Positions 2,255 through 39,200 of a DNA stretch of 64,000 bases are shown here, in pieces. Both the position numbers and the translations under genes were made by a program. The DNA is taken from positions 27,528,001-27,592,000 of the forward strand of contig NW_025964372.1 of NCBI RefSeq assembly GCF_023055435.1. The letters are read 5' to 3'. The notes under the pieces are model-generated. The model worked only from the letters and a program-made list of their open reading frames with translations, was not told the DNA's origin and made no database searches. This DNA comes from Haliotis rufescens (lineage: Eukaryota). Position 1 is the stretch's first letter, and the number at the start of each line of letters is the position of its first letter.

Positions 2255-2676
2255 TGTAACACAACACAAGAAGGCGGTTTGAGGATTACGTAGTTTTAAT
2301 CACAATGGCATATGTACAAGTCAAAGGAAGTGTGCCGTCCTTCCTTCCTCCCTCTAGATACTCACCTGTACCTTAGGGTGCTGAGACCAAGTCTGCCGGT
2401 ATTTGGAAGTCGCCCGGTAAATATATAGTAATGACGGAATGCCAAGCATTTTGTTTTGCACAGGTACTAAAATTTGGTGTGGTCAACTTGAGATTAAATT
2501 GACCATCAAGTGGTGTCCATGACGAGGCACTTAAAATTGTTCCCCTTAAGGTGACATGAAACCACCACTCACTGGTCCACTTGATATGTACTTGACATAT
2601 CCACGGGGTCAGTCGTATTTGGCAAACACTGATAGTGTTACATTAGTCGTATTTGGCAAACACTGATAGTGTTACA
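2255..2676 (-). repeat. 3' LTR (422 bp), copy 1
   Basis: Direct repeat of 10056-10545; TG...CA termini; adjacent PPT; TATA-like tract near 2418-2428 and ATTAAA near 2295 on the minus strand. Confidence 0.95.
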
Positions 2677-2689
2677 TCCGCCCCTTTCT
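2677..2689 (-). promoter_or_regulatory. Polypurine tract (also 24204-24216 and 45551-45563)
   Basis: Minus-strand AGAAAGGGGCGGA immediately precedes the TGTAAC of the 3' LTR. Confidence 0.9.
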
Positions 2690-2928
2690 ACTTGGAAATA
2701 TTGTTGATATTTCCAGGCCTCATAAGTCGATCTTAAAAATACACACAGTTCCATATATACATAAACAAAAAAAAGAGTGTAAATATTTTACAACGATCAT
2801 GCTGTCCGTGACCGGACTTAATCGCTTTTAAAATGTCACTTCGTCACAATCTTGGCCCTCGACCGGCTACAGACACACCATTTTGGTCATCTGTGATCGT
2901 CAGTTCTGCGTTGTGTTCTTCTTTTCAA

Positions 2929-3012
2929 TATATGTATTATGTTCAACTATTGATAGTCACGATATGGCTGAAATATTGCCGATGTGACTTAAAATTTAAC
3001 TCACTCACTCAC
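2929..3012 (+). mobile_element. 84-bp 5'-truncated non-LTR retroposon insertion inside the LTR element
   Basis: (TCAC)n tail; 12-bp TSD tcttcttttcaa at 2917-2928 and 3013-3024; related sequence at ~16529-16584. Confidence 0.8.
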
Positions 3013-3099
3013 TCTTCTTTTCAACTTAGTTCAACTTTATGGTCGTCACCACAAGTTCCAATATGGCCGCCGTCCATCTTCGTCACCAGCCTGTTCATC

Positions 3100-5028
3100 T
3101 TAGTTCATGCAGCAACAATATCGCAACACTGTACTGTTTAGTAGTGGGCATCCAGGCCAGGGTACAGGCGTCGTATGGATGACGTTGTTGGAGGCGCCGA
3201 AGTCTGATCCCCCGTCATCAGTGGTGCAGGTCGCTAAGCCGCTCCTGGAGTCGGTACTCGCGACCTGGATCACATCAGATCCCATCAACTCGAATTCGGG
3301 TGTTTCCCGGGTGTGCTTTCCCCAAGTGAGCATTTTGGATAGCCAAAATTTTCTATATCTTAAAACCATTATCAATATTATTATGACTAGTAACATGATA
3401 CCCCCAACTAACCACTTTTTCCAGTTAATTTTCTTATCCCAACTAATTTCAGTGTTTACACTATGTAATTCATCAATTAAATGACTCATGGATACCGTAT
3501 CTATATTCTGGAGGTGGCTTGGAACTTTCGATATCGTCACATTTCTTAATTTTTCCTTAAAGGGTTTCCATAACAGCATATCTAAAACGTTTGGCATATG
3601 AGGTAGCTGAGCCCAGATCTCATTTAATTCAAACCTGCTTTCATTACGATAAAATGGTAGTAATGTCAAATGATTGTTTGAAGCTGTACAAGAGACGTTT
3701 ACTCGTAACATACCTATTGGTGGGTAAATAGTTATTATCTGTGGATATACTTTTTAACATACTATAGTAAAGTCTAGTTGTTCAGCGGTCGCAATGACCC
3801 ATTGGCCTTCCCAAATATTATCTGCCCTAGGCAGTATCATGTGCATGGTAACTTCCCGTTTACACAAGCTCTTGACTTTATCTAAATCTTTCATGAAGAG
3901 CGCGATCATGAACATCTGACTAAGATTTAGGGGATAAGTCGGGCTGCTTATCATGCGTGATTCTAATTTATATGTGGCAACCATGCCAGCTACTTTAGTA
4001 AATTCATGCGTTTTATCTGAGAGGAGAGGTAGTGGTAAATTATGAATTTTATAAATTTCGTATTGCCCATTATAATCTAATAGTGGAAGTGATATTATTA
4101 TCAAAATCTTTTCCTCATAAACTAAGGTCGAGCATGTTAATGTTCGATAATAATTCCATAATTCCTTTTTCTGGATCTTTTGCCAGTTTATAGCCACTTG
4201 GTAAATGAATATTTATTTCACGTAATAATACTAATAATTCACTTGGAGTGACAGTGCCTGGCGACAAGTGTCCGAGTGATAGAGCATTAAATTGTAATTG
4301 GAGGTGATTGATATAAGACATCAATGTTTGTATTGTTTGTCTTACGTCTTCAATTACTAAATCTATCTTGAGATAATTGTTAGTAGCCCATTCAAGTTTA
4401 TCTATACGCCCCGCAAGAATTCGGGAGATGTTTGCTACATTTACCTCTACTTCCTTGAGATTATCAATAACTGCATTAATTGTTTGTCGGTTCTTCTGAA
4501 CTTGAATCCTTGTTACATTCAAAATAGTGAGTTCTTCATGAACTACATGCGATATGGTTTCTTGGTTCTTAGCAATTTTGTTGATATTGTTTTTGATTGA
4601 ATTTAAATCAGACTCGGATACTGTTCCAAATAGATAACTTAAAGCATCGCCAATAAATGGGATTAATGATCGCTTTGGTCTTATCAACTTCCTGTATTCT
4701 AGAAAACTAACTTCTAGCGAACTTAGTGTATTATTTAGACCCGTAATTTCCTTGTCTAACCTGTAGAAGGTTCCTTCTACTTTGTTAACATCAGTGCTGC
4801 TATGGTAGCGACTGATCAGTCTACGCAAAACTAATGCAACTTCTTCGATATCCTTCCTACATCTTTGAATATAGTCAATATAAGGTTTCATGTCTATTAC
4901 TAGTGCTACAAGCCATTTTGAACAAGTTGTAGAAATATCATTGACCTTTTGAAAAAACACGTTTTCAGAAACTAATAGACTAATAAACCACCAAAACACA
5001 ACACTGTTAATATGGTAAACACACCCAT
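3100..5028 (-). pseudogene. env: env, F-type (baculovirus F/errantivirus-like) class I fusion glycoprotein, disrupted, copy 1
   Basis: ATG at 5028 with hydrophobic leader MGVFTILTVLCF; furin site RPKR followed by fusion peptide SLIPFIGDALSYLFG; heptad-rich region; TM WLVGGIMLLVIIILIMVL; frameshifts near 5000 and 4170; in-frame TAA at 3754-3756. Confidence 0.88.
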
Positions 5029-8000
5029 TTCCTGCAAATATACAGAATAAAAAAACTATATAAAACTGTGACTAACCAAGACTACATACAACTATAATCA
5101 TCAGTTGTACTCAAACATGAATACCATATATGCTCAATACCATATATACAAAACAAACAAGATATGCATGCAGTGCCCGATTATACTACGAAGCCTTATA
5201 GTAACCCGGCTACTGCCTCAAACAACTTCTTAACCTTATCATCAGGGGTTAATTGACGTGTCTCTTTAACTTCATTTACGGATACATTATCATTATCTGA
5301 TGATTCACTTGATCCGTTGTCCTCCGTCGAATTGTCAATAGAGTCACGTCGCCTAGCACTCAAGCGTTTGGCAAGTTGGGCTAACGGAACGTCATTCTCT
5401 GAGTCTGAGTCTGAACGTTCCTGTCTATACCGCTTTGTGATCCTTGACATGGGATCCTTTGATCCTTGTACCTCCTCGTCCGAGGTTGATTCTGAGGATA
5501 GTGATATAACATTATGTTGTTTTCTTCGAGGTCTACCTTCTGTGTCCTTGGGAATTTCCCAATCATCTAGATTAGCAATCCTAAGATGTTCTGCATGAGC
5601 TCGTGTAGTTGATCCATCAAGCTGATTTCGTATGATGTAAGTTACTGGCGATGTTTGTTCAATAACCCTGTAGAACGGCTTCCACCTGTTCTGTAGCTTA
5701 CTCTTCCTTTGATGAAATCTATAGTAGACAGGGTCGCCAACCTTGATTTTGTTTACTGCTCCTGTCGGCATATCGGGCCTGTCTTTCTTTGCTTTCTTCA
5801 TGTTCTTGTGTACTAGAACGAATGCCTTGTGCTGCTGTTGCAGTGCTGTTTTATGTTCTTCGTCACCTGCATACTTACGTCTCGGTCGTAGCAGGTTGTC
5901 AACAGGAAGAACGACGTCACGATTGTACAACAAGAAGTATGGCGAAAACTTGGATGATTCACAGATGTAGAAACGAATTGCAGCCAAGGTTTGATTTAGG
6001 TATAAGTCCCATGTTGTTACGTTGTCATTCAGCTTTTTCGCAAGGACATCATGTAATGTACGATGAAATCGCTCAACTCTTGCATTGGACTGGGGGTGAT
6101 AAAATGACGTCCTGACGTGGTTGATCCCTAATGCTGACAATGTTTCACTGACAACCTTGTTAATATTCTCTGTCCCGTTATCTGTGACAATCTGTAGTGG
6201 ACAGCCAAACCTCGGGAATATCTCCTCTAGTATCAGATGGGCAACTGTCTCTGCTGATTTATCAGGTACTGCATACGCCTCAGGCCAACCGCTGAAGTGG
6301 TCAACGAAGCCGATGATATATTTATTCCCAGATAATGTTGTCGGATAGGGTCCTGAGAGATCCATACTTACCTTCGCAAATGGGTAGGGCGGAATCTCAG
6401 TTTCCTGCAAAGCTGGTTTCTGGGCCTTCATGGTTCTAGATTGACAAGTGATACATTTGCCGATACACTCAGTTATCTCCCTGTAGAGGTTGGGCCAATA
6501 ATATTTCAGTTTTATTGCCTCAAATGTCTTGTCAATCCCCATGTATCCGTTTGCATCATGATATTGCGTGACCACGATCTGTTTGAACTTTTCGGGTACA
6601 TATAACCTGGGCGATGGATCATCCTCAATTGCACTGACATAGTACAATAGATCATTTATGACTAAGTACCTTTTTAAGTGTGACTTGTCACCGTGACCTT
6701 TTTCCAGTTGTTCTTTGATGCTCGTGATGTTTTCATCCCTATCCTGCTCTTTCTGCATGTCTATATCCATTTCCATTCTGCGTGGCAATGAAGATGCCTC
6801 GGGAATTGGCAAATCGCAGCTAGCAAAATTCTTAGGGTTGAATTTGGTGGGGTTCAATGCCTCAATCCTCAGACTGTTGTCGGGTCGATCAATCTCAATG
6901 TCTTCCTCATTAGGCCCGCAGCCGTTATCTGTGTTTGATTTGCCCCGAGATAGTAGATCTGCACAAGTGTTGTTCTTTCCTGCCATATACCCGATCTTAC
7001 AGGTATAGCCCGCGATTCCCAGTGCCCATAGTTTTTCTACCTGTTCACCCTCACTTTCATGTGTCTGAACCAGACACGCCCCTATACAGCTGTTACTGGC
7101 GTCCGTGTACAGAGTGTATGGCCTATTCGGGTCGGGATAGGTCAGTAATGGTACAACCGTCAGACTGTCTTTCAAGAAATCAAAAGACTTTTGACATTCT
7201 TCAGACCACGAGAATCTCGCAAATCTCTTGGTAAGTTTTACCATGGGTTCAGCAATATTTGAGAAATTGGGGATAAATCGGCGGTAATAACTGCACATCC
7301 CTATGAACCCTCGTACTTCTTTTACTGACCTTGGGGCTTCCATTGACCTAATGGCCTCTACCTTTTGGTTGTCAGGTTTTATTCCATCTTGATTGATGAC
7401 AAAACCTAAGTACTGAGTTTCCTCCTTGGCAAAGCTACATTTTGACAACTTGAGTTTTAGTGAATGTTGGCGGAGTCGTTCATAAACTGTCTCGATATGA
7501 AGTAAATGTTGTTCTTCCGACTTTGAGAATATCAAAATATCGTCTAGGTAGGCTATTGCAAATGCATCGAGACCCTGTAAAACTTCATTCATAAGTTCCA
7601 TAAAAACTGCTGGAGCATTACAAAGTCCAAAAGGCATCACGTTAAATTCAAAAAGACCTCTATGACAAGCAAAAGCAGTTTTTTCTTTATCTTCATCATC
7701 CATTTGAGGGGTAAAGTCGTTGAAATAGGACGGCTAATTTTGTTCAAAACCCTAAAGTCTACACAAAAACGCTTCGATCCCTATTTTTTGTCAACGTCGA
7801 CAATGGGGAAACTCCATGGTGACCTAGAACGTCGAATGATCTGAGCATCTAACATGTCATCGATCGCCTTATCTACAACTTTGCGTTTGTTAAGAGGAGT
7901 TCGATATGGCTTCATCTTGATCGGAACATTGTCACCTGTGTCTATCTTCATACGTACAGTTTCTGTCTGCCCTAAGTCTAAATCACTCTTTGCAAATAAA

Positions 8001-8777
8001 CCCTTGTTTTGAGACACTAAATCAGTTAACCTTGATTTCAAATTAACTGGAGCGTCAATGTCAACATTGAGATCACAGGATATGTCCCTATCAGCTAATT
8101 CATCGCTACGCTCCTTAGCGTCCCTAGTACGCAACCTCTCTTCAACCTAAATGTACGGTTGGTATTGTTGACTAGCAGTAATGGGACATTCCTATGTTTG
8201 TCAATCTTAACAATAGAATTTCCTATGAGTAGACCTGGTTCATTTGCTGGGTAACTCTTTTCAATTGTGGAGATTTCATACGTGCTTGATGTTTCAAAAT
8301 ATGGTCTATTTTTAATCTTTGCCCTTAAGATATTTCTACACTGAGGTTTTACTGTTGTATCCGCTGCTAACCTGACTAGAGAAGATATATGGATATCTTC
8401 CTCTAGCGGTACATAAGTTTTCCCTACTGTTAAGCTACCCAAGTCGAAATACACCCTAACACCTGCCTGTGTCAACCAATCGTGTCCTAATATAAGATTT
8501 CTGTTCATGTTTCCTACAACATAGAAGGTATAGGAAAGATTGACGCCTCTCATCCTAAAGTGAACTTTCACATTCCCATCTACCTGTAACGAATTCCCAT
8601 TAACCCCTTGTAAAGCGACTTTCTTTTTGTTTAACGGAAATCTATCTTTTATTGAATCGTACACCCTACGATGCATTATCGACACTTCAGCGCCAGAATC
8701 AATTAAACACCTCCATTGTTTTTTTCCTATTTTGATACTACACGAATTTGGTCTCCCCACTTCATTTATTGAATGTA

Positions 8778-8923
8778 CTGGGCCATTTGTCGCCTTCTCT
8801 CCCTCATCGGCTTCTGGGCCATTTGTCGCCTTCTCTCCCTCATCGGCTTCTGGGCCATTTGTCGCCTTCTCTCCCTCATCGGCTTCTGGGCCATTTGTCG
8901 CCTTCTCTCCCTCATCGGCTTCT
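8778..8923. repeat. 36-bp x4 perfect tandem repeat at the start of pol (EADEGEKATNGP); also 30107-30252 and 51454-51599
   Basis: ctgggccatttgtcgccttctctccctcatcggctt repeated four times. Confidence 0.95.
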
Positions 8924-8949
8924 TTATGAGGAAGAGAATTTAGTTTCCC
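8903..8949 (-). promoter_or_regulatory. gag-pol -1 ribosomal frameshift signal (G GGA AAC slippery heptamer plus stem-loop)
   Basis: Minus strand CAG GGA AAC TAA ends gag; pol is open in the -1 frame; 12-13 bp stem UCUCUUCCUCAU/AUGAGGGAGAGA begins 4-5 nt downstream. Confidence 0.8.
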
Positions 8950-9899
8950 TGGTTTTGTTTTCTTGGTGGTCTGTTTGGACAATTTCGTTTAAAGTGGCCC
9001 GATTGATTGCATAGCCAATATACCCTGATCTCTTGCTCTCTCTCATTAACCGCATAAACACGTTTTGATCTGCAATCCTAAGCCCGGTGACCTGGCTTCC
9101 CGCATGAGAAACAATTACGACGCTGTCTAGCATGATCAACGTCCATAGGCACTTCTCGCCTCCCGCTATTCGAATCGTGCCCTCTACTATTAAAATCATG
9201 CCCTCGGCTACTCGGTTTTCCCAACCTGAGTTCGAATCTAGCCCTAATGTTTTGTTCACGCGTGGCCGAGGCCACTGCTTCTTTGAGGGATGTGGGGTTT
9301 TCCCTCATAAGTTTTTTTCTGCATGTACTCATGACTCAAGCCATCTCTGAAAAAACCTATCAATTGTCTTTGGATGGCGGGATTATCTTCACCGTCCTGC
9401 CCTAATCCTTCATAAGCCTCTTCGGCCAAGTTTAGTAGTCTTTCAGCATAAATCTGAACACCCTCACTATGTTTTTGTTTGACCGCCCTTAAAAACATAA
9501 ATGCGTGTTGTGGGTCGCTTATTTCAGCAAACCTGCTCGTTAGCTCTGCCCTTAACTCCTTCCATGTTTTGGCAGGATTATCATCCATATAGCATTGCAC
9601 GAAGTCGCTTACAGCGCCATCACAACTCTGAAAAGCAATTAGCTTTTTACTGGCGTCTTGATTTGCGCCAGTTAGCAATGCATACTTTTCTACAGATTTG
9701 ATCCATTTTTTTAAATCTTTCGGGTTCCCCACAAATGTTTTATAGCTTGATTCACGCCCTGTGCGCTTAGCGTTGTATTTACAGCAGCTAGCCTCCCGTT
9801 TATTTCATTTCCCTGTGCCCCTAATGTTGAAGTTACTGTTGATAACTGCCCCGTTATTTCTCCCGCTAACCCTTGTAAGAATTGTGCATATTCTGCCAT
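8940..9899 (-). pseudogene. gag: gag with two CCHC zinc knuckles, disrupted, copy 1
   Basis: ATG at 9899 (MAEYAQFLQG); capsid-like region WKELRAELTSRF; CFSCGKPGHRA*DC and (Y)WLCNQSGHFKRNC; two frameshifts and one premature stop. Confidence 0.9.
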
Positions 9900-10014
9900 T
9901 TTGCTCACTTAAGTACTTGCAAAAACCCAAAGAATCACCTTTTTGCGAGTCCCGGGACCAATTCCCTCGATCCTAGTCGTTTCCTGGGATCCCTCTCCTT
10001 CTCTCCTTAAGGTG

Positions 10015-10032
10015 ATCCTGGTCTCGGCACCA
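10015..10032 (-). promoter_or_regulatory. Primer binding site, tRNA-His-like (also 31344-31361 and 52692-52709)
   Basis: Minus-strand TGGTGCCGAGACCAGGAT; from memory 17/18 match to the complement of an invertebrate tRNA-His 3' end; tRNA-Phe is the next candidate. Confidence 0.7.
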
Positions 10033-10055
10033 GTTTACGTAACCCCGCCCCTTCT

Positions 10056-10545
10056 TGTAACACAACACAAGAAGGCGGTTTGAGGATTACGTAGTTTTAA
10101 TCACAATGGCATATGTACAAGTCAAAGGAAGTGTGGCGTCCTTCCTTCCTCCCTCTAGATACTCGCCTGTACTTTAGGGTGCTGAGACCAAGTCTGCCGG
10201 TATTTGGAAGTCGCCCGGTATATATAGTAATGATGGAATGCGAAGCATTTTGTTTTGCACAGGTACTAAAATTTGGTGTGGTCAACTTGAGATTAAATTG
10301 TCCATCAAGTGGTGTCCATGACGAGGCACTTAAAAATGTTCCCCTTAAGGTGACATGAAACCACCACTCACTGGTCCACTTGATATGTACTTGACATATC
10401 CATGGGGTCTTCACGGGGTCAGTCGTATTTGGCAAACACTGATAGTGTTACATCAGTCGTATCTGGCAAACACTGATAGTGTTATGATATGTACTTGACA
10501 TATCCACGGTGTCAGTCGTATCTGGCAAACACTGATAGTGTTACA
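10056..10545 (-). repeat. 5' LTR (490 bp), copy 1
   Basis: Direct repeat of 2255-2676 with extra U3 duplications; followed by CACA TSD. Confidence 0.95.
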
Positions 10546-11824: not shown

Positions 11825-11831
11825 TATAAAT
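11825..11831 (+). promoter_or_regulatory. TATA box of the lectin gene (also 33154 and 54502)
   Basis: TATAAAT 52 nt upstream of the signal-peptide ATG. Confidence 0.6.
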
Positions 11832-11876: not shown

Positions 11877-14800
11877 ATGCTGCTCATCTCTCTGTTCGTG
11901 GTTGTGTTGGGGGTTGCTGAGACACATGGTAAGTATTTCAACCGAATTTTCTACCATAATTTTCCAACTCTTATTAGGAATAGTTCGGTGTTGACATGAA
12001 ACTGCAGGTTAAGTCATAATTGTGTATCCCAGTTATACATATATTATATACAGGTAGAGACGGATCATGCTAAAAGTTGCTTTGCTCGGACAAATACACA
12101 ATGTTTATGTTCATGATCATGTATGAAAGGTTACTTTAGAACTATATACTCGCCAACAGGCATATAACCATGCATATACATACGTATGTATCAGTTTTAC
12201 TGTGTAGCTAGAATGTGTGTAAACTGTCGGGCACAAGACTTGTTTGATGGTTTGATGGTGACTAAACATGCTGTAATTGATATGGGTATCATAGTTGTGT
12301 TTCGGATCTCAAGTAATGTTTCGGATCTACATATATAATTTTAAGGTATGACTAAGATACCACAAGCATGGTATAAGAACACTGTATACGTTTCCCCAGA
12401 ATCCAGGGTCGCAGATAATGCAGGGTTTTGCAACATTGGCGCTAATGGAGTTTTAACCATTGAGGCCACCCTTGCTCTGTGTTTGAAGGTATAGAGGAAA
12501 ATATAGGTTTTTAGCTTTGGGATTTAATTTACCTACAGCTGTGATTGTTTGTCCCCAGGTGCTATGATCCCTGTCCTTGGGTCACAGGTCACTTCCTCCT
12601 CAGTCTTCACCTTCGGCTCCACGAACTTCGTTCCACAGTTTGCCGTTGACGGCGGATTTGGCACCGACTTCATCGCTGACAACACTACGTTTGCAACGGC
12701 TGTTGGAGACACAATGCCCTACATGGACATTGATCTGGGCAGCAACTTCCTTCTCGTCTCCGTCACCATCACCAACAGGGGTGACTGCTGTGGTAAGTAG
12801 AGTGAGATGGTTAGGTGTATTTATTTCTTTTAAAGACAGATAAATAGAATTACATACTGTCAAATGATCTGATTGTCCACAGATTCGTCCTCACATCATG
12901 AAACCCATATCGCCACTTTTTGGGCATTTCATCGATGTTTTGAGCTTGAAAGTAGTTCTTGCTCGATGACCTTATTTGAATATTTATTGGGTCAAATACT
13001 GAACAACAAAAGTTTTTTATCTAATCTGAAACAATTTCAGTTTGCAACAGACTCCTGTAAGTGTTCAAATGGTTTAATTTGCCATACTGACTTCAGAAAA
13101 TGCGTGATTTCATAAAAATAACATGAACATGCCAAAATGTCAGTTTACAAATCAATAGCATGTGTGTCCACCTCTGGTTGCAAAGCAAGCAACACATCTT
13201 CGTCACATGGAATGGACCAGGCGTCGCACATAGTCCTGTGGGATATCTGTCCATAACTGCTGGAGCATGTTTCGAAGTTCCTGGAGTGTCTGTGGAACAC
13301 GTGGTTGACGTCGAAGGCGCCGATCCATCTCATCCCACATGTGCTCGATTGGTGAGAGATCAGGGGAGCGAGCCGGCCAGGGGATGACATTCACGTTGTT
13401 TTAAATCCTGAACAAGCCGAGCAATATGAGGCCGGGCGTTGTCATGTTGAAAGGTAATGCCTGGACCATGATGACGCAAAAACGGTAGAACAAAAGGGCC
13501 GATGATCTCGTCGAGGTAGCGTTTTCCATTGAGATTTCCCTCTACCACTATCAAACGGGTCCTCTGTCTTGCTGTCATCCCACCCCATACCACAACGCTG
13601 CCGTTCCCGAACCGATCTTCTTCCATGCCACAATGATTAACGTAACGTTCACCTCGACGTCCGTCAATCGCTTAGGCTGAGGTGAAAACGAGAATCTTCA
13701 ATGAATAGAACTTGTCCCCACTGCATGGCCGTCCAGCGTAGACGCTGTCTGCACCACTGTAGACATGCTTTACAGTGGATTTCTGTCAAAATTGGACGCC
13801 TGGCGGGTCTTCTGGCGACAATCCCTGCACATCCAGTTGTCTTGTCGATTATTAGTTACGCGTGACTGCCACTCCGAGGACGGTCTCTGACTGCATTCGT
13901 CTGTAGGCAACGTTACCATAAACACCAAATGTTGTTTCTGTGGACGTTAAATTGTCTTGCAACATCACTTTGACTCGATCCTGCTTCAAGCATACCAATG
14001 GCTCGCAGACGCTCATTTTCGGGCAGGCGTGGCATTTCGTAATGTTGAATAATTGCGTAATTTTGTTGTTTTTCTGAGTGGTTGTTGTCAGCACGATGCT
14101 AAACAATGCATATGGAATCCCGTTAACGCACGTGTTTTTATACCTATTCTTCGGAAGTGAAATGCATGGGACTTGCATAAAAGTCATCTTTTGCTTGGAA
14201 TGCATGCTTTTCTGGAGCAGTTGCGTTTTTGTGACTTGATTCCATACATGTACTACAATAGTGAAACCAAACTTTACTTGTTTGAAATATACACTAAAAT
14301 ATTGGTGTCACAGGAACTTTTGTTTTTGAGTATAGTAACAAGTTGATTGGATTGCTTTTTCACATCAATAACACTATGATATTTATCACATATTACCTAA
14401 ATAAATAGAACGGTGTCACGTTTAACTTTCTCTATCGTTCTCAATGCTGTTCTTTGCTACCACCAAAGCAGTCTATTCAGATTAAGGCGTGTTGGTTGAC
14501 TTATTCTGCCCTTGGTAAACAGTAAGGTAGACTCGGGATGATTATCGTGGTCCCTCATAGCTGTAGATTTCTTTTACATCAGAAACATGTACAGAACTGA
14601 GATCATACAAAGCATATATATCTTCAAGAACATTCTATGGAGAGCGTAGACCTAGAATTACAACACATTCCTGCTGAACTTGATATCAGTCATCAACGCT
14701 CCAGTTCCCAAGTCACAGTATGTCCACAGGACCCTGTGTTAAACTGTGTAACCTGGCAGATTGTATGGTATGGTGTCATGCCCCGACGGCGTGGATATTT

Positions 14801-17800
14801 GGACCAAGTGTTCCTGACTTATACTATTTGAGGCTACCACGATATTGCTGCATAAGATATCATCATCATCACCCACTCTTTCCATCTTCGCAGCCGAGCG
14901 TTTTAGCATGTCTGAAGAAACTTATATTAGAAACAAAGGTCATTATCGACTACCCAAATTTGCATAAAAGGCTGAAAGACAATAATCGACTGAAGGGGTT
15001 GTGTTGTACATGTGTATATCTCTCCACCTTGGCAGCTGATCGTCTTCGAAACATCCGAATCGAGGTGTACAATAACGATCCAACACTCGGAGGAACGCCT
15101 CAAGTCTGCACCACAATCGGCAGCACCGCCCCTGCCGCCAGTTCCAACACCACGTTCACCTGTTCGGCCATGGCATTCGGAAGGTACATCCGTTTTAACA
15201 AGTTCAGCATGGTCGACGCAAATGACATCCTTCAGTTTGTAGAGGTGGTCCTTGATGGCGTTCCGCTAAGTAAGTATATAACTGTATATATATGATGGTA
15301 AGATGAGGCTAACAAAAATAGTATCACAAAAATAGTGCCACATTTACCTACTTTATCGGTGATATTTTCCATTCTGTTTAACTGTGAATGCTTCTAATGA
15401 ATGAAAAATTAGTTCTCGTAAAAAGAATGCCGATGCAATGTTAAAAAATGGCCACTCAATAGAAACATTGAAAGTATTCGTGTGTTCTAGTGGAAGCAAG
15501 CGCCATGCGATTATAAATACACTTGACGACACGGATGGCTCAGTGACTTCCAGTTTTCAGATCGATGTTCATGATGTCAATCACTGGATTGTCTGGTCCA
15601 GACCCAATCATTTATAGACCGAGGTCATATAACTTGAATATTTCTGAGTGTTACATTAAACAACAAACAAATGGCCTTGGATTCGAGCGAACGTTCAGAG
15701 GATCAGCAAGGGGTCGCAACTATCGACGGTGAACTCGGAGTTTTTGACCATTGGGCCACCCAAGCGCTGTGTTTGGAGGAAAAGAGGAAACTATAGGTTT
15801 ATATGTTTTGAAATGAGATTTACCTACAGCTGTGATTGTTTGTCCCCCAGGTGCTGTGATCCCCGTCGGCGGGTCACAGGTCTCTTCCTCCTCAGTCTTC
15901 ACCTTCGGCTCCACGGACTTCGTTCCACAGCTTGCCGTTGACGGCGGATTTGGCCCCGACTTCGTCGTTGACAACACTACATTTGGAACAGCTGTCGAAG
16001 ACACTATGCCTTATATGGACATCGATTTGGGCAGCAACTTCCTTCTCCGCTCAGTCACCATCACCAACAGGGCTGACTGCTGTTGTAAGTAGAGTGAGAT
16101 GGGGAGGTTGGTTTAACGCCGATTTGAACAGTATCTTAAAAAGTATGTTAAAGACGGCGTTTCAGTTCAATGCAGGAGGAAAGCCAATAGAGATCAAGCC
16201 TGGTTTTGCCACTTGAATGGATCCAAAAATAACAAACAAGGCGAATCTGTCATACCAAGTCACGATCAGCAGATCGAGGTACGCCGAAGGGATGCAATTC
16301 TTGGCGGATTGCAGGAAGCAGAAGTCCCCATGGTCCCTAGTATGGTTGCCTAACTTTAGTTGCTGGTGATCTCTAGCCCATTTTTATTATGTATTGTTTA
16401 GAATAGTCACATTTTTATGGTAACATACTAATTTTAAATCTATATCTGTGATATTCTAGTGCTTTTACTGTCCTTTGTCGACAGATTTCAATGTCTATAT
16501 CAATGTATTATTACTGTATAATTTGATTTAGTCACTATATGGCTGAAATATTGCCAACGTGACTATAAATGTTAACTCACTCACTTGACGAATTGTGGCA
16601 TTCATTTGAAGTAACCCTATGATGTAGCGTTGGCCCTGTTAGATATTCATCAATGTAAAGCAAATATTCACCAATAGGCTTCAACGATTCTCAGTCGAAG
16701 AACCAGAAGCATATATTTTGGAAGAGCTTGAAATCAGACATAAATAAATGCAAACATACACAATTGATTCCTTTTGGCCAGGGTTGATACCCATGTAGTG
16801 TGTAAAATATCACGGTGGGAGATGTAAACTGCGCATGAATACAATGCTTGAGTGAACCGCCCTATTAATCATACATTAACAGACATAATGACACTCCTAT
16901 CGTAACTAAATGGCCATTATATCGGTGTAAAGCACTTGATAGTAGTTCCTGCTAGATAACCTCATTTGAATATTTATTGCATCATGACAAGTTTGTCCGA
17001 TTTCGCAAGTCACAATATGACTCCAGGACCCCGTGTTATACGGAATTGACTGGTAGATTGTTGCCCTGGCCCAGACTAATTGAGACTACCTCGTTGTTTT
17101 TGTTCAGTAAGACATTATCACTAAATCATCCGAAAATTCACAGCCGAGCGTCTTCGAAACATCATCATCGAGGTATATGACAACAACGCAACTCTTGGAG
17201 GAACGCCTCAAGTGTGCACCACAATCGGCAGCACCGCCCCCGCCGCCGGGTCGACCACGACCTTCAACTGCACAGGGACGCCAATCGGAAGGTACATCCG
17301 TCTTAAAAAGAGCTCCAAGGTCGACGCTACTGATATCCTTCAGTTAGTAGAGGTGGTCCTAGAAGGCGTCCAGCTACGTAAGTATATGACTGTATTTATC
17401 TGATGGTAAGACAAATGAGGATAAAATAGCATCACATGGTAGTTTCATTTATCTACTTGTAATCCCTGGTTTTCCAGGTGTGTGATCCGACTTGGTTGCA
17501 CCAAAGTGTACGCACCTACTTAGTGCAGTCATTGTTATAAAGAAGTTGTATATCCATTGAGTGAAATACTTGTTAGGACGGCGTTAAACCCATCTCACTC
17601 ACTCCTCCACAGAATGTCCTTGCAACCACTTCCAGCTGGACGAGAACTGTTTCTACTTCTCTGGATTCCAAGCAAGCTATGCCGACGCGAAGGTAAACAA
17701 CGACACCGCTTTCCTCCCATATTAAGCTGACACGCCGAGATATAACTGGAATACTGTTAAAAGCGGCCTTAAACCAAACTCACTCACTCACTCACTTAAG

Positions 17801-19077
17801 GGTGGTCGGAGGATACGTTTGGCCCAATGGGTAAGGGACCTTTATTCAAAGAAAGTTGCGTCCCATGGCCAAGCCAGCATTATGTAGTTTGGACTGAAAT
17901 CTCAGATACCGAACCTTTCTCGTGGGTTGAACAAAATATGTCAACGACTAAACCCTGCGTCTGTCCTGGCTTGCCTCTCACGACCTGAACCAAACTCACA
18001 CAATCAGTCACTCAATCACTCACTCACACACTCAGTCATTCACTCACTCACTCTCTCTCAATAACTGAGATAATGTTAAACTATGCGTTAAACCAGATTC
18101 ACTCAATAACCTTTAGTGTATTCAGTACTCTAGGATGATACTTTGCGTGTTTGAAGTCTGAATGAATACTGAAGTACAGAGATTCTTGTTACAGGAATAC
18201 TGTGACATCATCGGAAGCAATCTGGCCATGATCCGAACCCAGGCTCAGAGCGACTTTGTCAACGGTGTTCTCGCTGCAAATGCTAAAAAAGGTAATTCAT
18301 AGCTCGCTTATACTGTTTCGTGGCCATTCTATATCCAATTAACAGAACAACAAAGGTTTCCACTTGGACCTGTGGCAGTGTTAGATAACAGTATGAGTTC
18401 CACCCAAGAAAGCGTTTTTATCAACGGGGTCTATGATAAAAGGTTATGTTTCAGATCAAATCAATTTCAATTTCGATTTCAGCGGTTCACACACGGTACA
18501 GGTAAGGCTCGTCTTTACCTGGACGAGACATAGGCCCAGACATCAGCTCCCTCTTTAGGCTAAGCTATGCATCATCTAACTGCATCTTTTTCTCTTGTCC
18601 TCATTTGCAGGACTTCACGAAATAAACATTAGCGACGATTAATTGGATCTGGAGGTCAGTCTCGGAGAACTTGTTGCTTGTCAATGTACCCTGACGTCGC
18701 GAGATGTTACTGATAACATCAACCACTCGTTGGTCTGGCTACGAGTGGATTATTTACCGCCCACCATGTAATGGCTTAAGAGTTACACACTTCATATTTT
18801 CTGTCACTCAGGTCAAGAATACTGGATTGGGGTGACCAATCTTTTGGACCGGTTCCAGTGGCGATATCTGCTTGGTGACATTGTTCCCCTAAATGGCTTC
18901 ACCTCCCCACTCGTGAACGGCACGGGCACTTGCAGCACCTCTACCTCTGAGAAGCACCCACATAACTGTGCCGTCCTGGAGAAGAACGACGCCGGCCAAT
19001 GGGAGTGGGAGGAAGAACGGTGTTACAGGAAGGAGAACTTCATCTGTCTGGCAACCCTGCCAATACCTGCGCCCTAG
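11877..19077 (+). CDS. Secreted mosaic lectin, signal peptide + 2 F-type lectin (fucolectin-like) domains + C-type lectin domain, 476 aa, 8 exons, copy 1
   Basis: Exons 11877-11928, 12559-12792, 15036-15269, 15851-16084, 17144-17377, 17613-17692, 18195-18291, 18812-19077; all introns GT-AG with compatible phases; 1431 nt with no internal stop; MLLISLFVVVLGVAETHG signal; AVDG, NRxDCCxxRL and GRYIR F-lectin motifs; CFYF, YC, YWIG and C..W..C..FIC C-type lectin motifs. Confidence 0.9.
12997..14332 (-). mobile_element. Tc1/mariner DNA transposon (dead) in lectin intron 2; transposase relic 13152-14035
   Basis: MPRLPENERLRAIGMLEAG HTH start; VVVWGG, FQHDNARPH, WPARSPDLSPIEHMW and GGHTCY* motifs, with stops and frameshifts; imperfect terminal IRs TACTGAACAACAAAAGTT / AACTTTTGTTTTTGAGTA with TA ends; flanks align to the empty intron 4. 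Confidence 0.88.
15559..15670 (+). mobile_element. SINE-like fragment in lectin intron 3 (also ~36888 and ~58236)
   Basis: gatcgatgttcatgatgtcaatcactggattgtctggtccagac...ttaaacaacaaacaa. Confidence 0.7.
17992..18060. repeat. Degenerate (TCAC)n simple repeat in intron 6
   Basis: cactcaatcactcactcacacactcagtcattcactcactcactc. Confidence 0.75.
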
Positions 19078-19153: not shown

Positions 19154-19159
19154 AATAAA
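19154..19159 (+). promoter_or_regulatory. Candidate polyadenylation signal of the lectin gene (second AATAAA at 19288-19293)
   Basis: AATAAA 77 nt after the stop codon. Confidence 0.55.
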
Positions 19160-23715: not shown

Positions 23716-24626
23716 GATTATTTACAGGCTTCCATCGTATAGGTGGAACATTGATGAGTGTGGCTTTAGGCAACAGACACATGTAACACAACACAAGAAG
23801 GCGGTTTGAGGATTACGTAGTTTTAATCACAATGGCATATGTACAAGTCAAAGGAAGTGTGCCGTCCTTCCTTCCTCCCTCTAGATACTCACCTGTACCT
23901 TCGGGTGCTGAGACCAAGTCTGCCGGTATTTGGAAGTCGCCCGGTAAATATATAGTAATGATGGAATGCGAAGCATTTTGTTTTGCACAGGTACTAAAAT
24001 TTGGTGTGGTCAACTTGAGATTAAATTGACCATCAAGTGGTGTCCATGACGAGGCACTTAAAATTGTTCCCCTTAAGGTGACATGAAACCACCACTCACT
24101 GGTCCACTTGATATGTACTTGACATATCCACGGGGTCAGTCGTATTTGGCAAACACTGATAGTGTTACATTAGTCGTATTTGGCAAACACTGATAGTGTT
24201 ACATCCGCCCCTTTCTACTTGGAAATATTGTTGATATTTCCAGGCCTCATAAGTCGATCTTAAAAATACACACAGTTCCATATATATATATACAAAAAAA
24301 AGAGTGTAAATATTTTACAACGATCATGCTGTCCGTGACCGGACTTAATCGCTTTTAAAATGTCACTTCGTCACAATCTTGGCCCTCGACCGGCTACAGA
24401 CACACCATTATGGTCATCTGTGATCGTCAGTTCTGCGTCGTGTTCTTCTTTTCAATATATGTATTATGTTCAACTATTGTTAGTCACGATATGGCTGAAA
24501 TATTGCCGATGTGACTTAAAATTTAACTCACTCACTCACTCTTCTTTTCAACTTAGTTCAACTTTATGGTCGTCACCACAAGTTCCAATATGGCCGCCGT
24601 CCATCTTCGTCACCAGCCTGTTCATC

Positions 24627-33205: not shown

Positions 33206-36200
33206 ATGCTGCTCATCTCTCTGTTCGTGGTTGTGTTGGGGGTTGCTGAGACACATGGTAAGTATTTCAACCGAATTTTCTACCATAATTTTCCAACTCT
33301 TATTAGGAATAGTTCGGTGTTGACATGAAACTGCAGGTTAAGTCATAATTGTGTATCCCAGTTATACATATATTATATACAGGTAGAGACGGATCATGCT
33401 AAAAGTTGCTTTGCTCGGACAAATACACGATGTTTATGTTCATGATCATGTATGAAAGGTTACTTTAGAACTATATACTCGCCAACAGGCATATAACCAT
33501 GCATATACATACGTATGTATCAGTTTTACTGTGTAGCTAGAATGTGTGTAAACTGTCGGGCACAAGACTTGTTTGATGGTTTGATGGTGACTAAACATGC
33601 TGTAATTGATATGGGTATCATAGTTGTGTTTCGGATCTCAAGTAATGTTTCGGATCTACATATATAATTTTAAGGTATGACTAAGATACCACAAGCATGG
33701 TATAAGAACACTGTATACGTTTCCCCAGAATCCAGGGTCGCAGATAATGCAGGGTTTTGCAACATTGGCGCTAATGGAGTTTTAACCATTGAGGCCACCC
33801 TTGCTCTGTGTTTGAAGGTATAGAGGAAAATATAGGTTTTTAGCTTTGGGATTTAATTTACCTACAGCTGTGATTGTTTGTCCCCAGGTGCTATGATCCC
33901 TGTCCTTGGGTCACAGGTCACTTCCTCCTCAGTCTTCACCTTCGGCTCCACGAACTTTGTTCCACAGTTTGCCGTTGACGGCGGATTTGGCACCGACTTC
34001 ATCGCTGACAACACTACGTTTGCAACGGCTGTTGGAGACACAATGCCCTACATGGACATTGATCTGGGCAGCAACTTCCTTCTCGTCTCCGTCACCATCA
34101 CCAACAGGGGTGACTGCTGTGGTAAGTAGAGTGAGATGGTTAGGTGTATTTATTTCTTTTAAAGACAGATAAATAGAATTACATACTGTCAAATGATCTG
34201 ATTGTCCACAGATTCGTCCTCACATCATGAAACCCATATCGCCACTTTTTGGGCATTTCATCGATGTTTTGAGCTTGAAAGTAGTTCTTGCTCGATGACC
34301 TTATTTGAATATTTATTGGGTCAAATACTGAACAACAAAAGTTTTTTATCTAATCTGAAACAATTTCAGTTTGCAACAGACTCCTGTAAGTGTTCAAATG
34401 GTTTAATTTGCCATACTGACTTCAGAAAATGCGTGATTTCATAAAAATAACATGAACATGCCAAAATGTCAGTTTACAAATCAATAGCATGTGTGTCCAC
34501 CTCTGGTTGCAAAGCAAGCAACACATCTTCGTCACATGGAATGGACCAGGCGTCGCACATAGTCCTGTGGGATATCTGTCCATAACTGCTGGAGCATGTT
34601 TCGAAGTTCCTGGAGTGTCTGTGGAACACGTGGTTGACGTCGAAGGCGCCGATCCATCTCATCCCACATGTGCTCGATTGGTGAGAGATCAGGGGAGCGA
34701 GCCGGCCAGGGGATGACATTCACGTTGTTTTAAATCCTGAACAAGCCGAGCAATATGAGGCCGGGCGTTGTCATGTTGAAAGGTAATGCCTGGACCATGA
34801 TGACGCAAAAACGGTAGAACAAAAGGGCCGATGATCTCGTCGAGGTAGCGTTTTCCATTGAGATTTCCCTCTACCACTATCAAACGGGTCCTCTGTCTTG
34901 CTGTCATCCCACCCCATACCACAACGCTGCCGTTCCCGAACCGATCTTCTTCCATGCCACAATGATTAACGTAACGTTCACCTCGACGTCCGTCAATCGC
35001 TTAGGCTGAGGTGAAAACGAGAATCTTCAATGAATAGAACTTGTCCCCACTGCATGGCCGTCCAGCGTAGACGCTGTCTGCACCACTGTAGACATGCTTT
35101 ACAGTGGATTTCTGTCAAAATTGGACGCCTGGCGGGTCTTCTGGCGACAATCCCTGCACATCCAGTTGTCTTGTCGATTATTAGTTACGCGTGACTGCCA
35201 CTCCGAGGACGGTCTCTGACTGCATTCGTCTGTAGGCAACGTTACCATAAACACCAAATGTTGTTTCTGTGGACGTTAAATTGTCTTGCAACATCACTTT
35301 GACTCGATCCTGCTTCAAGCATACCAATGGCTCGCAGACGCTCATTTTCGGGCAGGCGTGGCATTTCGTAATGTTGAATAATTGCGTAATTTTGTTGTTT
35401 TTCTGAGTGGTTGTTTTCAGCACGATGCTAAACAATGCATATGGAATCCCGTTAACGCACGTGTTTTTATACCTATTCTTCGGAAGTGAAATGCATGGGA
35501 CTTGCATAAAAGTCATCTTTTGCTTGGAATGCATGCTTTTCTGGAGCAGTTGCGTTTTTGTGACTTGATTCCATACATGTACTACAATAGTGAAACCAAA
35601 CTTTACTTGTTTGAAATATACACTAAAATATTGGTGTCACAGGAACTTTTGTTTTTGAGTATAGTAACAAGTTGATTGGATTGCTTTTTCACATCAATAA
35701 CACTATGATATTTATCACATATTACCTAAATAAATAGAACGGTGTCACGTTTAACTTTCTCTATCGTTCTCAATGCTGTTCTTTGCTACCACCAAAGCAG
35801 TCTATTCAGATTAAGGCGTGTTGGTTGACTTATTCTGCCCTTGGTAAACAGTAAGGTAGACTCGGGATGATTATCGTGGTCCCTCATAGCTGTAGATTTC
35901 TTTTACATCAGAAACATGTACAGAACTGAGATCATACAAAGCATATATATCTTCAAGAACATTCTATGGAGAGCGTAGACCTAGAATTACAACACATTCC
36001 TGCTGAACTTGATATCAGTCATCAACGCTCCAGTTCCCAAGTCACAGTATGTCCACAGGACCCTGTGTTAAACTGTGTAACCTGGCAGATTGTATGGTAT
36101 GGTGTCATGCCCCGACGGCGTGGATATTTGGACCAAGTGTTCCTGACTTATACTATTTGAGGCTACCACGATATTGCTGCATAAGATATCATCATCATCA

Positions 36201-39200
36201 CCCACTCTTTCCATCTTCGCAGCCGAGCGTTTTAGCATGTCTGAAGAAACTTATATTAGAAACAAAGGTCATTATCGACTACCCAAATTTGCATAAAAGG
36301 CTGAAAGACAATAATCGACTGAAGGGGTTGTGTTGTACATGTGTATATCTCTCCACCTTGGCAGCTGATCGTCTTCGAAACATCCGAATCGAGGTGTACA
36401 ATAACGATCCAACACTCGGAGGAACGCCTCAAGTCTGCACCACAATCGGCAGCACCGCCCCTGCCGCCAGTTCCAACACCACGTTCACCTGTTCGGCCAT
36501 GGCATTCGGAAGGTACATCCGTTTTAACAAGTTCAGCATGGTCGACGCAAATGACATCCTTCAGTTTGTAGAGGTGGTCCTTGATGGCGTTCCGCTAAGT
36601 AAGTATATAACTGTATATATATGATGGTAAGATGAGGCTAACAAAAATAGTATCACAAAAATAGTGCCACATTTACCTACTTTATCGGTGATATTTTCCA
36701 TTCTGTTTAACTGTGAATGCTTCTAATGAATGAAAAATTAGTTCTCGTAAAAAGAATGCCGATGCAATGTTAAAAAATGGCCACTCAATAGAAACATTGA
36801 AAGTATTCGTGTGTTCTAGTGGAAGCAAGCGCCATGCGATTATAAATACACTTGACGACACGGATGGCTCAGTGACTTCCAGTTTTCAGATCGATGTTCA
36901 TGATGTCAATCACTGGATTGTCTGGTCCAGACCCAATCATTTATAGACCGAGGTCATATAACTTGAATATTTCTGAGTGTTACATTAAACAACAAACAAA
37001 TGGCCTTGGATTCGAGCGAACGTTCAGAGGATCAGCAAGGGGTCGCAACTATCGACGGCGAACTCGGAGTTTTTGACCATTGGGCCACCCAAGCGCTGTG
37101 TTTGGAGGAAAAGAGGAAACTATAGGTTTATATGTTTTGAAATGAGATTTACCTACAGCTGTGATTGTTTGTCCCCCAGGTGCTGTGATCCCCGTCGGCG
37201 GGTCACAGGTCTCTTCCTCCTCAGTCTTCACCTTCGGCTCCACGGACTTCGTTCCACAGCTTGCCGTTGACGGCGGATTTGGCCCCGACTTCGTCGTTGA
37301 CAACACTACATTTGGAACAGCTGTCGAAGACACTATGCCTTATATGGACATCGATTTGGGCAGCAACTTCCTTCTCCGCTCAGTCACCATCACCAACAGG
37401 GCTGACTGCTGTTGTAAGTAGAGTGAGATGGGGAGGTTGGTTTAACGCCGATTTGAACAGTATCTTAAAAAGTATGTTAAAGACGGCGTTTCAGTTCAAT
37501 GCAGGAGGAAAGCCAATAGAGATCAAGCCTGGTTTTGCCACTTGAATGGATCCAAAAATAACAAACAAGGCGAATCTGTCATACCAAGTCACGATCAGCA
37601 GATCGAGGTACGCCGAAGGGATGCAATTCTTGGCGGATTGCAGGAAGCAGAAGTCCCCATGGTCTCTAGTATGGTGGCCTAACTTTAGTTGCTGGTGATC
37701 TCTAGCCCATTTTTATTATGTATTGTTTAGAATAGTCACATTTTTATGGTAACATACTAATTTTAAATCTATATCTGTGATATTCTAGTGCTTTTACTGT
37801 CCTTTGTCGACAGATTTCAATGTCTATATCAATGTATTATTACTGTATAATTTGATTTAGTCACTATATGGCTGAAATATTGCCAACGTGACTATAAATG
37901 TTAACTCACTCACTTGACGAATTGTGGCATTCATTTGAAGTAACCCTATGATGTAGCGTTGGCCCTGTTAGATATTCATCAATGTAAAGCAAATATTCAC
38001 CAATAGGCTTCAACGATTCTCAGTCGAAGAACCAGAAGCATATATTTTGGAAGAGCTTGAAATCAGACATAAATAAATGCAAACATACACAATTGATTCC
38101 TTTTGGCCAGGGTTGATACCCATGTAGTGTGTAAAATATCACGGTGGGAGATGTAAACTGCGCATGAATACAATGCTTGAGTGAACCGCCCTATTAATCA
38201 TACATTAACAGACATAATGACACTCCTATCGTAACTAAATGGCCATTATATCGGTGTAAAGCACTTGATAGTAGTTCCTGCTAGATAACCTCATTTGAAT
38301 ATTTATTGCATCATGACAAGTTTGTCCGATTTCGCAAGTCACAATATGACTCCAGGACCCCGTGTTATACGGAATTGACTGGTAGATTGTTGCCCTGGCC
38401 CAGACTAATTGAGACTACCTCGTTGTTTTTGTTCAGTAAGACATTATCACTAAATCATCCGAAAATTCACAGCCGAGCGTCTTCGAAACATCATCATCGA
38501 GGTATATGACAACAACGCAACTCTTGGAGGAACGCCTCAAGTGTGCACCACAATCGGCAGCACCGCCCCCGCCGCCGGGTCGACCACGTCCTTCAACTGC
38601 ACAGGGACGCCAATCGGAAGGTACATCCGTCTTAAAAAGAGCTCCAAGGTCGACGCTACTGATATCCTTCAGTTAGTAGAGGTGGTCCTAGAAGGCGTCC
38701 AGCTACGTAAGTATATGACTGTATTTATCTGATGGTAAGACAAATGAGGATAAAATAGCATCACATGGTAGTTTCATTTATCTACTTGTAATCCCTGGTT
38801 TTCCAGGTGTGTGATCCGACTTGGTTGCACCAAAGTGTACGCACCTACTTAGTGCAGTCATTGTTATAAAGAAGTTGTATATCCATTGAGTGAAATACTT
38901 GTTAGGACGGCGTTAAACCCATCTCACTCACTCCTCCACAGAATGTCCTTGCAACCACTACCAGCTGGACGAGAACTGTTTCTACTTCTCTGGATTCCAA
39001 GCAAGCTATGCCGACGCGAAGGTAAACAACGACACCGCTTTCCTCCCATATTAAGCTGACACGCCGAGATATAACTGGAATACTGTTAAAAGCGGCCTTA
39101 AACCAAACTCACTCACTCACTCACTTAAGGGTGGTCGGAGGATACGTTTGGCCCAATGGGTAAGGGACCTTTATTCAAAGAAAGTTGCGTCCCATGGCCA

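What the first reader, a model, noticed from the sequence alone, without database searches (positions are those of the whole stretch)
11877..19077. Hidden 8-exon gene: secreted FTLD-FTLD-CTLD mosaic lectin
Seen: a splice-consistent 1431-nt CDS in all three units that the ORF track shows only as fragments. It combines two different lectin folds in one small soluble protein with no TM segment. Established: F-type lectins serve in innate immunity and in oyster sperm bindin; C-type lectin domains serve in immunity and shell matrix (for example perlucin). Inference: a bifunctional cross-linking recognition protein; this exact architecture may be undescribed.
Basis: partly seen in the sequence, partly recalled or inferred. 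Interest (0 to 1): 0.72.

Follow-up and report, generated by a model that had tools for sequence, protein, structure and literature searches.

The report
Abalone mosaic lectin-like gene array
This is a real eight-exon abalone gene, already in public annotation and repeated in a tandem array, whose predicted secreted protein joins two F-type and one C-type lectin-like domains but lacks the standard sugar-gripping residues, so it likely binds something other than the usual fucose or mannose.

Summary
The gene is real. Eight GT-AG exons give a 1431-nt open frame (476 aa) in all three 21.3-kb units. Each product is identical to a RefSeq Haliotis rufescens 'uncharacterized' protein, so it is hidden only from an ORF track. 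A probable RNA contig joins exon 5 to exon 8 with exactly the length of exons 6+7 between. Pfam, PDB and fold searches confirm signal-like N-terminus, FTLD, FTLD, CTLD, with no clear TM segment. All 34 subfamily FTLDs replace the fucose-binding His (Thr/Ser) and its neighbouring Cys but keep Arg-x-Asp-Cys-Cys-x-x-Arg. The CTLD has no EPN/QPD or WND. FTLD+CTLD mosaics are in print. The F-F-C order also occurs in salmonid membrane proteins, and small F-C proteins form chordate clusters. The window holds 3 of 14 clustered genes (11 F-F-C, 2 F-F, 1 F-C) under purifying selection (dN/dS 0.27-0.57). F-F-C likely arose by exon-pair duplication in the rufescens/cracherodii lineage. Best reading: a secreted, multivalent, non-canonical recognition protein; ligand and tissue untested. 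The scan's earlier notes held nothing on this DNA. New variant of a known kind, modest interest.

The parts
11825..11830 (+). TATAAA box, 52 nt before the ATG
   Evidence: sequence; promoter role inferred
11877..11928 (+). exon 1: ATG and signal-peptide-like segment (aa 1-17)
   Evidence: identical to RefSeq model
12559..12792 (+). exon 2: first half of FTLD1 (AVDGG cation motif, Thr64 in the His slot, R91-G-D-C-C)
15036..15269 (+). exon 3: second half of FTLD1 (R98, C120, C138)
15851..16084 (+). exon 4: first half of FTLD2 (Thr220 in the His slot, R247-A-D-C-C); paralogue of exon 2
17144..17377 (+). exon 5: second half of FTLD2; paralogue of exon 3
17613..17692 (+). exon 6: start of the CTLD (C331, C333, C342)
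18195..18291 (+). exon 7: CTLD helices
18812..19077 (+). exon 8: CTLD WIG motif, long loop, W-E-E in the WND slot, stop
19154..19159 (+). candidate polyadenylation signal
   Evidence: sequence; use inferred
33206..40406 (+). second copy U2 (= XP_048245491.1)
54554..61754 (+). third copy U3 (= XP_046368463.1)
2255..10484 (-). Ty3/gypsy-type LTR retroelement 1.4 kb upstream of U1, frames broken; copies at 23782-31813 and 45129-53161; accounts for most of the extra length of these units over the 12-13 kb of the other repeats
12996..14333 (-). decayed Tc1/mariner-type element in intron 2 (19-nt inverted ends)

Best explanation
The gene encodes a 476-residue protein, predicted to be secreted, with two F-type lectin domains and one C-type lectin-like domain; it likely works as a multivalent recognition adaptor at body surfaces or in haemolymph and likely binds a ligand other than plain fucose or mannose. 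Shown: gene structure, domain folds, motif changes, purifying selection, array. Inferred: the signal peptide is cut after about Gly18. Each FTLD keeps the Asp-Gly core of the cation site and the Arg-x-Asp-Cys-Cys-x-x-Arg half of the sugar pocket, but has Thr in place of the His and has lost both Cys of the pair beside the pocket, so it would grip a modified or non-fucose glycan, with avidity from the tandem pair. The CTLD lacks most Ca2+ site-2 ligands and varies between paralogues mainly in the long loop and beta-4 region, so it would act as a variable, probably Ca-independent contact surface. History (inferred from the tree): an F-C ancestor, still present in H. rubra, H. asinina and in this cluster, duplicated its two phase-1 FTLD exons in the rufescens/cracherodii lineage; unequal crossing-over then made the array, raising dosage; two copies dropped the CTLD through a stop in exon 6; an LTR element inserted into one unit before its last triplication.
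For: Fold: model matches striped-bass F-lectin 3cqo (Z 25.1, 290 aligned, rmsd 4.2) and eel lectin 1k12 (Z 21.1, 145 aligned, rmsd 1.8), above CBM32-type folds (Z 17.5 or less); CTLD part matches Mincle (TM 0.82 by target). Motif: 34 of 34 subfamily FTLDs from 19 proteins of 4 Haliotis species keep R, D, C, C, R and the cation Asp; His slot Thr 32, Ser 2; Cys slot Phe 34; T64-R91 spacing 27 equals His52-Arg79 (PMC5712786 section 6). FTLs with altered motifs that bind other sugars are known: bryohealin, ranaspumin-4 (PMC12221842, passages). Selection: dN/dS U1 vs five paralogues 0.27-0.57; pN/pS F1 0.31, F2 0.34, CTLD 430-466 0.67 vs 0.30 for the rest, Fisher p 0.022, segment chosen after seeing the alignment. 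Tree: subfamily on a long stem (1.78, 100/100); all F1 and F2 domains inside a rufescens+cracherodii group (90/89) that excludes rubra and asinina. Exon pairs flanked by phase-1 introns match the striped-bass FTL gene (PMC12221842 figure legend). Array: 14 genes; 6 listed H. cracherodii proteins of the same cluster.
Against: No ligand, tissue or induction data; runs are coded and RNA status is a guess. Mollusc CTLs use many motif variants and still bind microbes (PMC5877582, passages), so the missing EPN/WND does not prove loss of Ca-dependent sugar binding. His replacement is common: of 724 FTLDs retrieved, 491 were parsed, 196 had His, 158 had no parsable Cys, 137 had another residue, so the change is not special to this gene. 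CTLD variation stays below 1, so relaxed constraint fits as well as diversifying selection. The CTLD long loop (415-438) is modelled with pLDDT under 50 and pTM is 0.48. The rufescens+cracherodii branch is below the 95/80 support mark and only four Haliotis species were sampled.
Confidence: 0.5

Rival explanations
1. Canonical double lectin: FTLDs bind fucose, the CTLD binds mannose or galactose with Ca2+, and the protein cross-links microbes to host cells.
For: Both folds are intact; two of three basic residues and the vicinal cysteines are kept; mollusc CTL motifs vary (PMC5877582).
Against: No His anywhere in either FTLD (His only at 17, 335, 437, 439), no EPN/QPD/WND-like motif. In the window copies the Glu before the third conserved Cys (kept as E-N-C in the H. 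rubra, H. asinina and single-FTLD proteins) is His or Gln.
Confidence: 0.13
2. Non-lectin extracellular matrix component (shell, mucus or egg coat), where acidic Ca-binding domains act on mineral or gel structure and the array serves dosage.
For: Acidic domains (pI 4.1-4.9), six N-glycosylation sequons; near-identical copies; perlucin is an abalone shell CTL (PMC6003135, passages); FTLs occur in clam shell (PMC12221842).
Against: Five subfamily motifs were found in 0 of 24 supplementary files, and with a sixth general FTLD motif in 0 of 27 files, of the H. laevigata shell proteome; this is another species and a term search, so weak, and says nothing on mucus or egg coat. The invariant Arg-Asp-Cys-Cys-Arg pocket argues for a retained ligand site.
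Confidence: 0.2
3. Gamete-recognition protein in the manner of oyster bindin.
For: Oyster bindins are tandem FTLD proteins with variable repeat number (PMC12221842); F-C, F-F-C and F-F forms coexist here.
Against: Bindin is a single-copy gene under positive selection (same passage); here there are 14 genes with dN/dS 0.27-0.57 and rufescens and cracherodii proteins fall in one 90% cluster.
Confidence: 0.07
4. The gene is real but the three near-identical units are partly an assembly duplication (alleles laid in tandem).
For: Units are 99.6-99.9% identical; N stretches lie at the same place in units 1 and 2 and their nature cannot be told.
Against: Three distinct versions exist (U1-U2 18 mismatches in 15,759; U1-U3 62 in 15,598), more than one diploid locus gives; six other tandem copies flank them; H. 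cracherodii has its own multi-copy set.
Confidence: 0.1

Closest known systems
Tandem F-type lectins: striped bass MsaFBP32 (PDB 3cqo) and eel AAA (PDB 1k12)
   Same: F-type fold (Z 25.1 and 21.1), two tandem FTLDs, each on a pair of exons with phase-1 introns, Arg-x-Asp-Cys-Cys-x-x-Arg, secreted layout.
   Different: Thr for His, Phe and Val for the two Cys beside the pocket, DGG for DG(N/D/S), an added C-terminal CTLD; about 26% identity.
Drosophila furrowed / CG9095 (FTLD + CTLD + CCP + TM; PMC5712786 sections 8 and 13)
   Same: FTLD and CTLD in one chain, both departing from the sugar-binding motifs.
   Different: Furrowed is a membrane adhesion protein with CCP repeats; this protein is small, soluble, has two FTLDs and keeps both Arg.
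Fish FTLD(n)-CTLD proteins (salmonid LOC115150032-type; Fugu ANZG004 in PMC514892; Siniperca LOC122869731)
   Same: Same domain order, including F-F-C (5 salmonid-group proteins).
   Different: Most have a hydrophobic anchor near residue 47 and a neck, intact Cys-x-His motifs and often WND; database models, not characterised; no orthology shown.
Gastropod F-C proteins (H. rufescens LOC124143480 and fucolectin-5-like, H. asinina fucolectin-1-like, H. rubra LOC124269864, Gigantopelta LOC121384023)
   Same: F then C order, His slot already Ser/Thr/Met; two of them lie in the same cluster.
   Different: One FTLD only; the more distant ones keep both Cys that this subfamily lost. None is functionally characterised in what I read.
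Perlucin and mollusc single-domain CTLs
   Same: Secreted CTLD protein of abalone.
   Different: No FTLD; perlucin has galactose/mannose specificity by its cited title; no sign of this family in the shell proteome files.

Membership tests
F-type lectin (fucolectin) | F-type jelly-roll fold | tested here: met
   Pfam PF22633/PF00754 twice; model vs 1k12 Z 21.1, rmsd 1.8, 145 aligned
F-type lectin (fucolectin) | Fucose motif His...Arg-x-Asp-x4-Arg/Lys | tested here: not met
   Arg-x-Asp-x4-Arg present at 91 and 247, His slot Thr64/Thr220; 0 of 34 subfamily domains have His
F-type lectin (fucolectin) | Vicinal Cys-Cys at the pocket | tested here: met
   C94-C95, C250-C251; 34 of 34
F-type lectin (fucolectin) | Cation motif h2-D-G-x (x = N, D, S) | tested here: inconclusive
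   AVDGG in both domains: h2DG kept, x is Gly (motif from PMC5712786 section 8)
F-type lectin (fucolectin) | Binds L-fucose | not testable with these tools
   needs glycan array or ITC
[quoted passage not shown] | CTLD fold with WIG motif and two core disulfides | tested here: met
   PF00059 50.5 bits vs cut-off 22.6; C359, C441, C459, C467 align with CLEC4C cysteines; Mincle fold match
Ca2+-dependent C-type lectin (sugar-binding) | EPN or QPD and WND at Ca2+ site 2 | tested here: not met
   no such motif; W-E-E in the WND slot; mollusc variants exist (PMC5877582), so function is not excluded
Ca2+-dependent C-type lectin (sugar-binding) | Ca2+-dependent sugar binding | not testable with these tools
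   needs assay
FTLD+CTLD mosaic proteins | Both domain types in one spliced chain | tested here: met
Furrowed/CG9095 | CCP repeats and transmembrane segment | tested here: not met
   no Sushi hit; no clear TM segment
Oyster bindin | Single-copy gene under positive selection | tested here: not met
   14 genes, dN/dS 0.27-0.57
Oyster bindin | Sperm acrosome expression | not testable with these tools
   run tissues are not given

The most novel reading that the evidence does not exclude
An abalone-specific family of two-headed recognition proteins in which the F-type pocket was rebuilt (His to Thr, flanking disulfide removed, both Arg kept) to bind a new ligand class, such as modified algal or microbial glycans, and then doubled for avidity, while the CTLD loop diversifies among array copies: a constant-F, variable-C receptor set recently expanded in red and black abalone.
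Probability: 0.12. Interest if true: 0.6.

Novelty: new variant of a known kind. Interest (0 to 1): 0.3.

Why it matters
Modest. It corrects a likely mis-annotation (these 'fucolectin-like' proteins probably do not bind fucose in the standard way) and offers a clean natural series (F-C, F-F-C, F-F in one cluster) for seeing a mosaic lectin gain and lose domains by exon-pair duplication and a stop codon. If the rebuilt pocket binds a new glycan, it would add a specificity to the F-type family and give a candidate recognition locus in two abalone species. It does not open a new kind of system.

Tried and rejected
Trimer of FTLD1-2 (residues 19-330, three copies): no verdict, score 0.00, not used either way. 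No listed run is on record as RNA: 'no RNA holder listed', not used as evidence. A second laying of reads for junctions 1-5 gave no answer, so junction 1-2 rests on RefSeq identity and conservation. Exon 8 alone found no PDB sequence match; the full protein did. Exons 3, 5 and 6 alone gave no relevant Pfam hit; Endothelin (E 0.1), AIDA and Defensin hits were treated as chance. Positive selection: not shown, all ratios under 1. Alternative splicing as a source of forms: one joint 12791-17144 in run X5 fits either skipping or a single-FTLD paralogue or exon 2/4 cross-mapping; not resolved. Literature: accession prefixes gave 0 papers; searches listed no paper on this abalone family by title or abstract start. 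Bishnoi 2015 (PMID 25943580), Khairnar 2019 (PMID 30566276) and PMC6454436 are not held; the first may list this architecture and the second bears on His-less domains. PMC13594953, PMC7333891, PMC10140915, PMC8878817, PMC3269628: passages read, nothing on this family. Earlier scan notes: 0 near, 0 by sequence, 8 listed by words, none bearing.
Full report
Observation. The window is three head-to-tail units of about 21.3 kb, 99.6-99.9% identical over their long blocks. In unit 1, eight exons (11877-11928, 12559-12792, 15036-15269, 15851-16084, 17144-17377, 17613-17692, 18195-18291, 18812-19077) join through seven GT-AG introns to 1431 nt, 476 aa. The frame is open in 3 of 3 units and the CDSs differ by 3-6 nt. 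None of 200,000 random chains of the same exon sizes was stop-free.

It is annotated. A search with exon 8 for longer proteins returned 4 hits among 40 candidates, all Haliotis. The three products match RefSeq H. rufescens proteins XP_048245481.1, XP_048245491.1 and XP_046368463.1 with no differences, all named 'uncharacterized'. The gene is hidden only from a prokaryote-style ORF track.

Splicing. Four runs were laid, all contigs, RNA status guessed by the tool. X1 and X2 cross intron-exon borders and look like DNA. In X6, one 587-nt contig lies on 17218-17377 and then 18810-19061; the unlisted middle equals exons 6+7 to the base (177 nt), which joins FTLD2 to the CTLD in one molecule of this gene or a close paralogue. 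Other X6 contigs end exactly at the donors of exons 3 and 4. An X5 contig starts at the exon 5 acceptor. Junction 1-2 was not seen, and tissues are not given.

Domains. Pfam gives PF22633/PF00754 twice and PF00059 once, above cut-offs. Best PDB sequence hits are striped-bass FBP32 (E 2.9e-20) and eel lectin 1k12, then many CTLDs. The AlphaFold2 model (33-row alignment, mean pLDDT 76, pTM 0.48; residues 415-438 under 50) matches 3cqo at Z 25.1 and 1k12 at Z 21.1, rmsd 1.8, and Mincle for the third domain. The N-terminus is the most hydrophobic window; the next (1.64) is on a predicted strand. [quoted passage not shown]

Binding sites. The F-type fucose motif is His...Arg-x-Asp-x4-Arg/Lys, and the triad His52, Arg79, Arg86 holds the sugar (PMC5712786, sections 6 and 8). 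Here Arg91/Asp93/Cys94/Cys95/Arg98 and their domain-2 partners are present, but the residue 27 before the first Arg is Thr and neither FTLD contains a His. In 34 FTLDs from 19 subfamily proteins of four species, R, D, C, C, R and the cation Asp are invariant, the His slot is Thr (32) or Ser (2), and the Cys two before it is Phe (34). The second Cys that FBP32 shows in LTLCEV is Val in 14 of 14 cluster genes; that these two Cys form a disulfide in AAA is recalled, not from a call. His loss is not rare: of 724 FTLDs retrieved, 491 were parsed, 196 with His, 137 with another residue, 158 without a parsable Cys. The CTLD has no EPN/QPD/WND-like motif; the WND slot reads W-E-E. Mollusc CTLs use many variants of both motifs (PMC5877582, passages), so sugar binding is doubtful rather than excluded. 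FTLs with changed motifs can bind other sugars (PMC12221842).

Genomic setting. Searches of G000 and 26 fetched stretches show 14 close relatives on C594 between 27.47 and 27.96 Mb: nine tandem plus-strand F-F-C genes (the window has the 6th to 8th), two minus-strand F-F-C frames (one starts ATA), two F-F genes with TGA at the third CTLD codon and lost or decayed later exons (a 332-aa RefSeq protein fits this form), and one F-C gene. The stretch 27.692-27.945 Mb was not fetched; the searches listed no close hit there. More distant FTLD genes, one of them F-C, follow at 27.98-28.08 Mb. The 90% cluster has 17 members, 15 listed: 9 H. rufescens, 6 H. cracherodii.

Evolution. dN/dS of U1 against five paralogues is 0.27-0.57. 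Counting distinct codons, pN/pS is 0.31 (F1), 0.34 (F2), 0.30 for most of the CTLD and 0.67 for residues 430-466 (Fisher p 0.022; segment picked after seeing the alignment). That is localised variation, not shown positive selection. A 40-row FTLD tree puts the subfamily on a long stem (1.78, 100/100), with all F1 and F2 domains in a rufescens+cracherodii group (90/89, under the tool's star mark) outside which lie the single FTLDs of H. rubra and H. asinina. So F-F-C likely came from F-C by exon-pair duplication. An LTR retroelement lies in the three window units and in no other fetched copy; its LTRs differ at 10-11 of about 420 sites while the units differ by 0.1-0.4%, so it likely inserted before the triplication.

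How common is the architecture. Reviews list CTLDs among frequent partners of FTLDs, with Drosophila furrowed/CG9095 as an example with degenerate sites (PMC5712786 section 13; PMC12221842 section 11). A Fugu CTLD+FTP protein was tabulated in 2004 (PMC514892, table row). Of 321 proteins retrieved, 55 had both domains: 21 F-F-C, 14 F-C, 12 F-F-F-C, 6 F-F-F-F-C, 2 others. The F-F-C set is 16 Haliotis proteins and 5 salmonid-group proteins, four of the five with a hydrophobic anchor and all with intact Cys-x-His. F-C also occurs in Gigantopelta. The ESM Atlas gives three chordate F+C clusters of 68-99 members at 0.92-0.93. These searches were capped and word-based, so a soluble F-F-C elsewhere is not excluded. 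Ten paper searches listed nothing on this abalone family; Bishnoi 2015 and Khairnar 2019 could not be read and may bear on novelty.

Mechanism. Most likely (0.5) a secreted multivalent recognition protein whose tandem FTLDs keep a working but re-shaped pocket for a non-fucose or modified glycan, and whose CTLD is a variable, probably Ca-independent contact surface; the array raises dosage. Rivals: matrix component (0.2; family motifs in 0 of 27 supplement files of the H. laevigata shell proteome, PMC6003135, weak), canonical double lectin (0.13), bindin-like (0.07). Separately, there is about a 0.1 chance that part of the triplication is an assembly effect. Ligand, tissue and oligomer state are untested.

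Verdict. Observation confirmed, interpretation partly supported. A real, annotated but uncharacterised lineage variant of a known mosaic type. Interest 0.3.

Noticed in passing
window 2255-10484, 23782-31813, 45129-53161 (- strand): Ty3/gypsy-type LTR retroelement with gag, protease, RT, RNase H, integrase and a weak env-like hit (PF07253, E 1.3e-5, under the cut-off); frames are broken into six ORFs. Present only in the three window units among the fetched copies.
   Followed up: partly
window 12996-14333: Decayed Tc1/mariner-type element in intron 2 with 19-nt inverted ends; present, complete or deleted to different extents, in some cluster copies and absent in others.
   Followed up: partly
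G000:C594:27640700-27656200 and 27672900-27679700 (L023-L024, L026): Two paralogues share a TGC-to-TGA stop at the third CTLD codon, giving F-F proteins with intact FTLDs and decaying CTLD exons.
   Followed up: yes
G000:C594:27608528 (+) and 27640456 (-): Lone copies of exon 1 (97-100% identical) with no downstream exons matched.
   Followed up: no
G000:C594:27668085-27668156 (L025): Paralogue g12 has an open F-F-C frame but starts ATA, while its H. cracherodii counterpart P0002 starts with Met; possible recent loss of the start.
   Followed up: partly
G000:C594:27.98-28.08 Mb: A second cluster of more distant FTLD genes (F-F and one F-C) with Ser in the His slot but both Cys kept.
   Followed up: partly
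window 15555-15620, 16530-16580, 17560-18060: Very high-copy short interspersed repeats ending in ACTC runs inside introns 3-6.
   Followed up: no
P0099, P0212-P0238: Salmonid CD209-like membrane proteins carry 1-4 canonical FTLDs before a CTLD, with repeat number varying among isoforms and species.
   Followed up: no
protein residues 333 and 429: Two extra CTLD cysteines are kept in all 19 subfamily proteins aligned; they may pair with each other or between chains.
   Followed up: no
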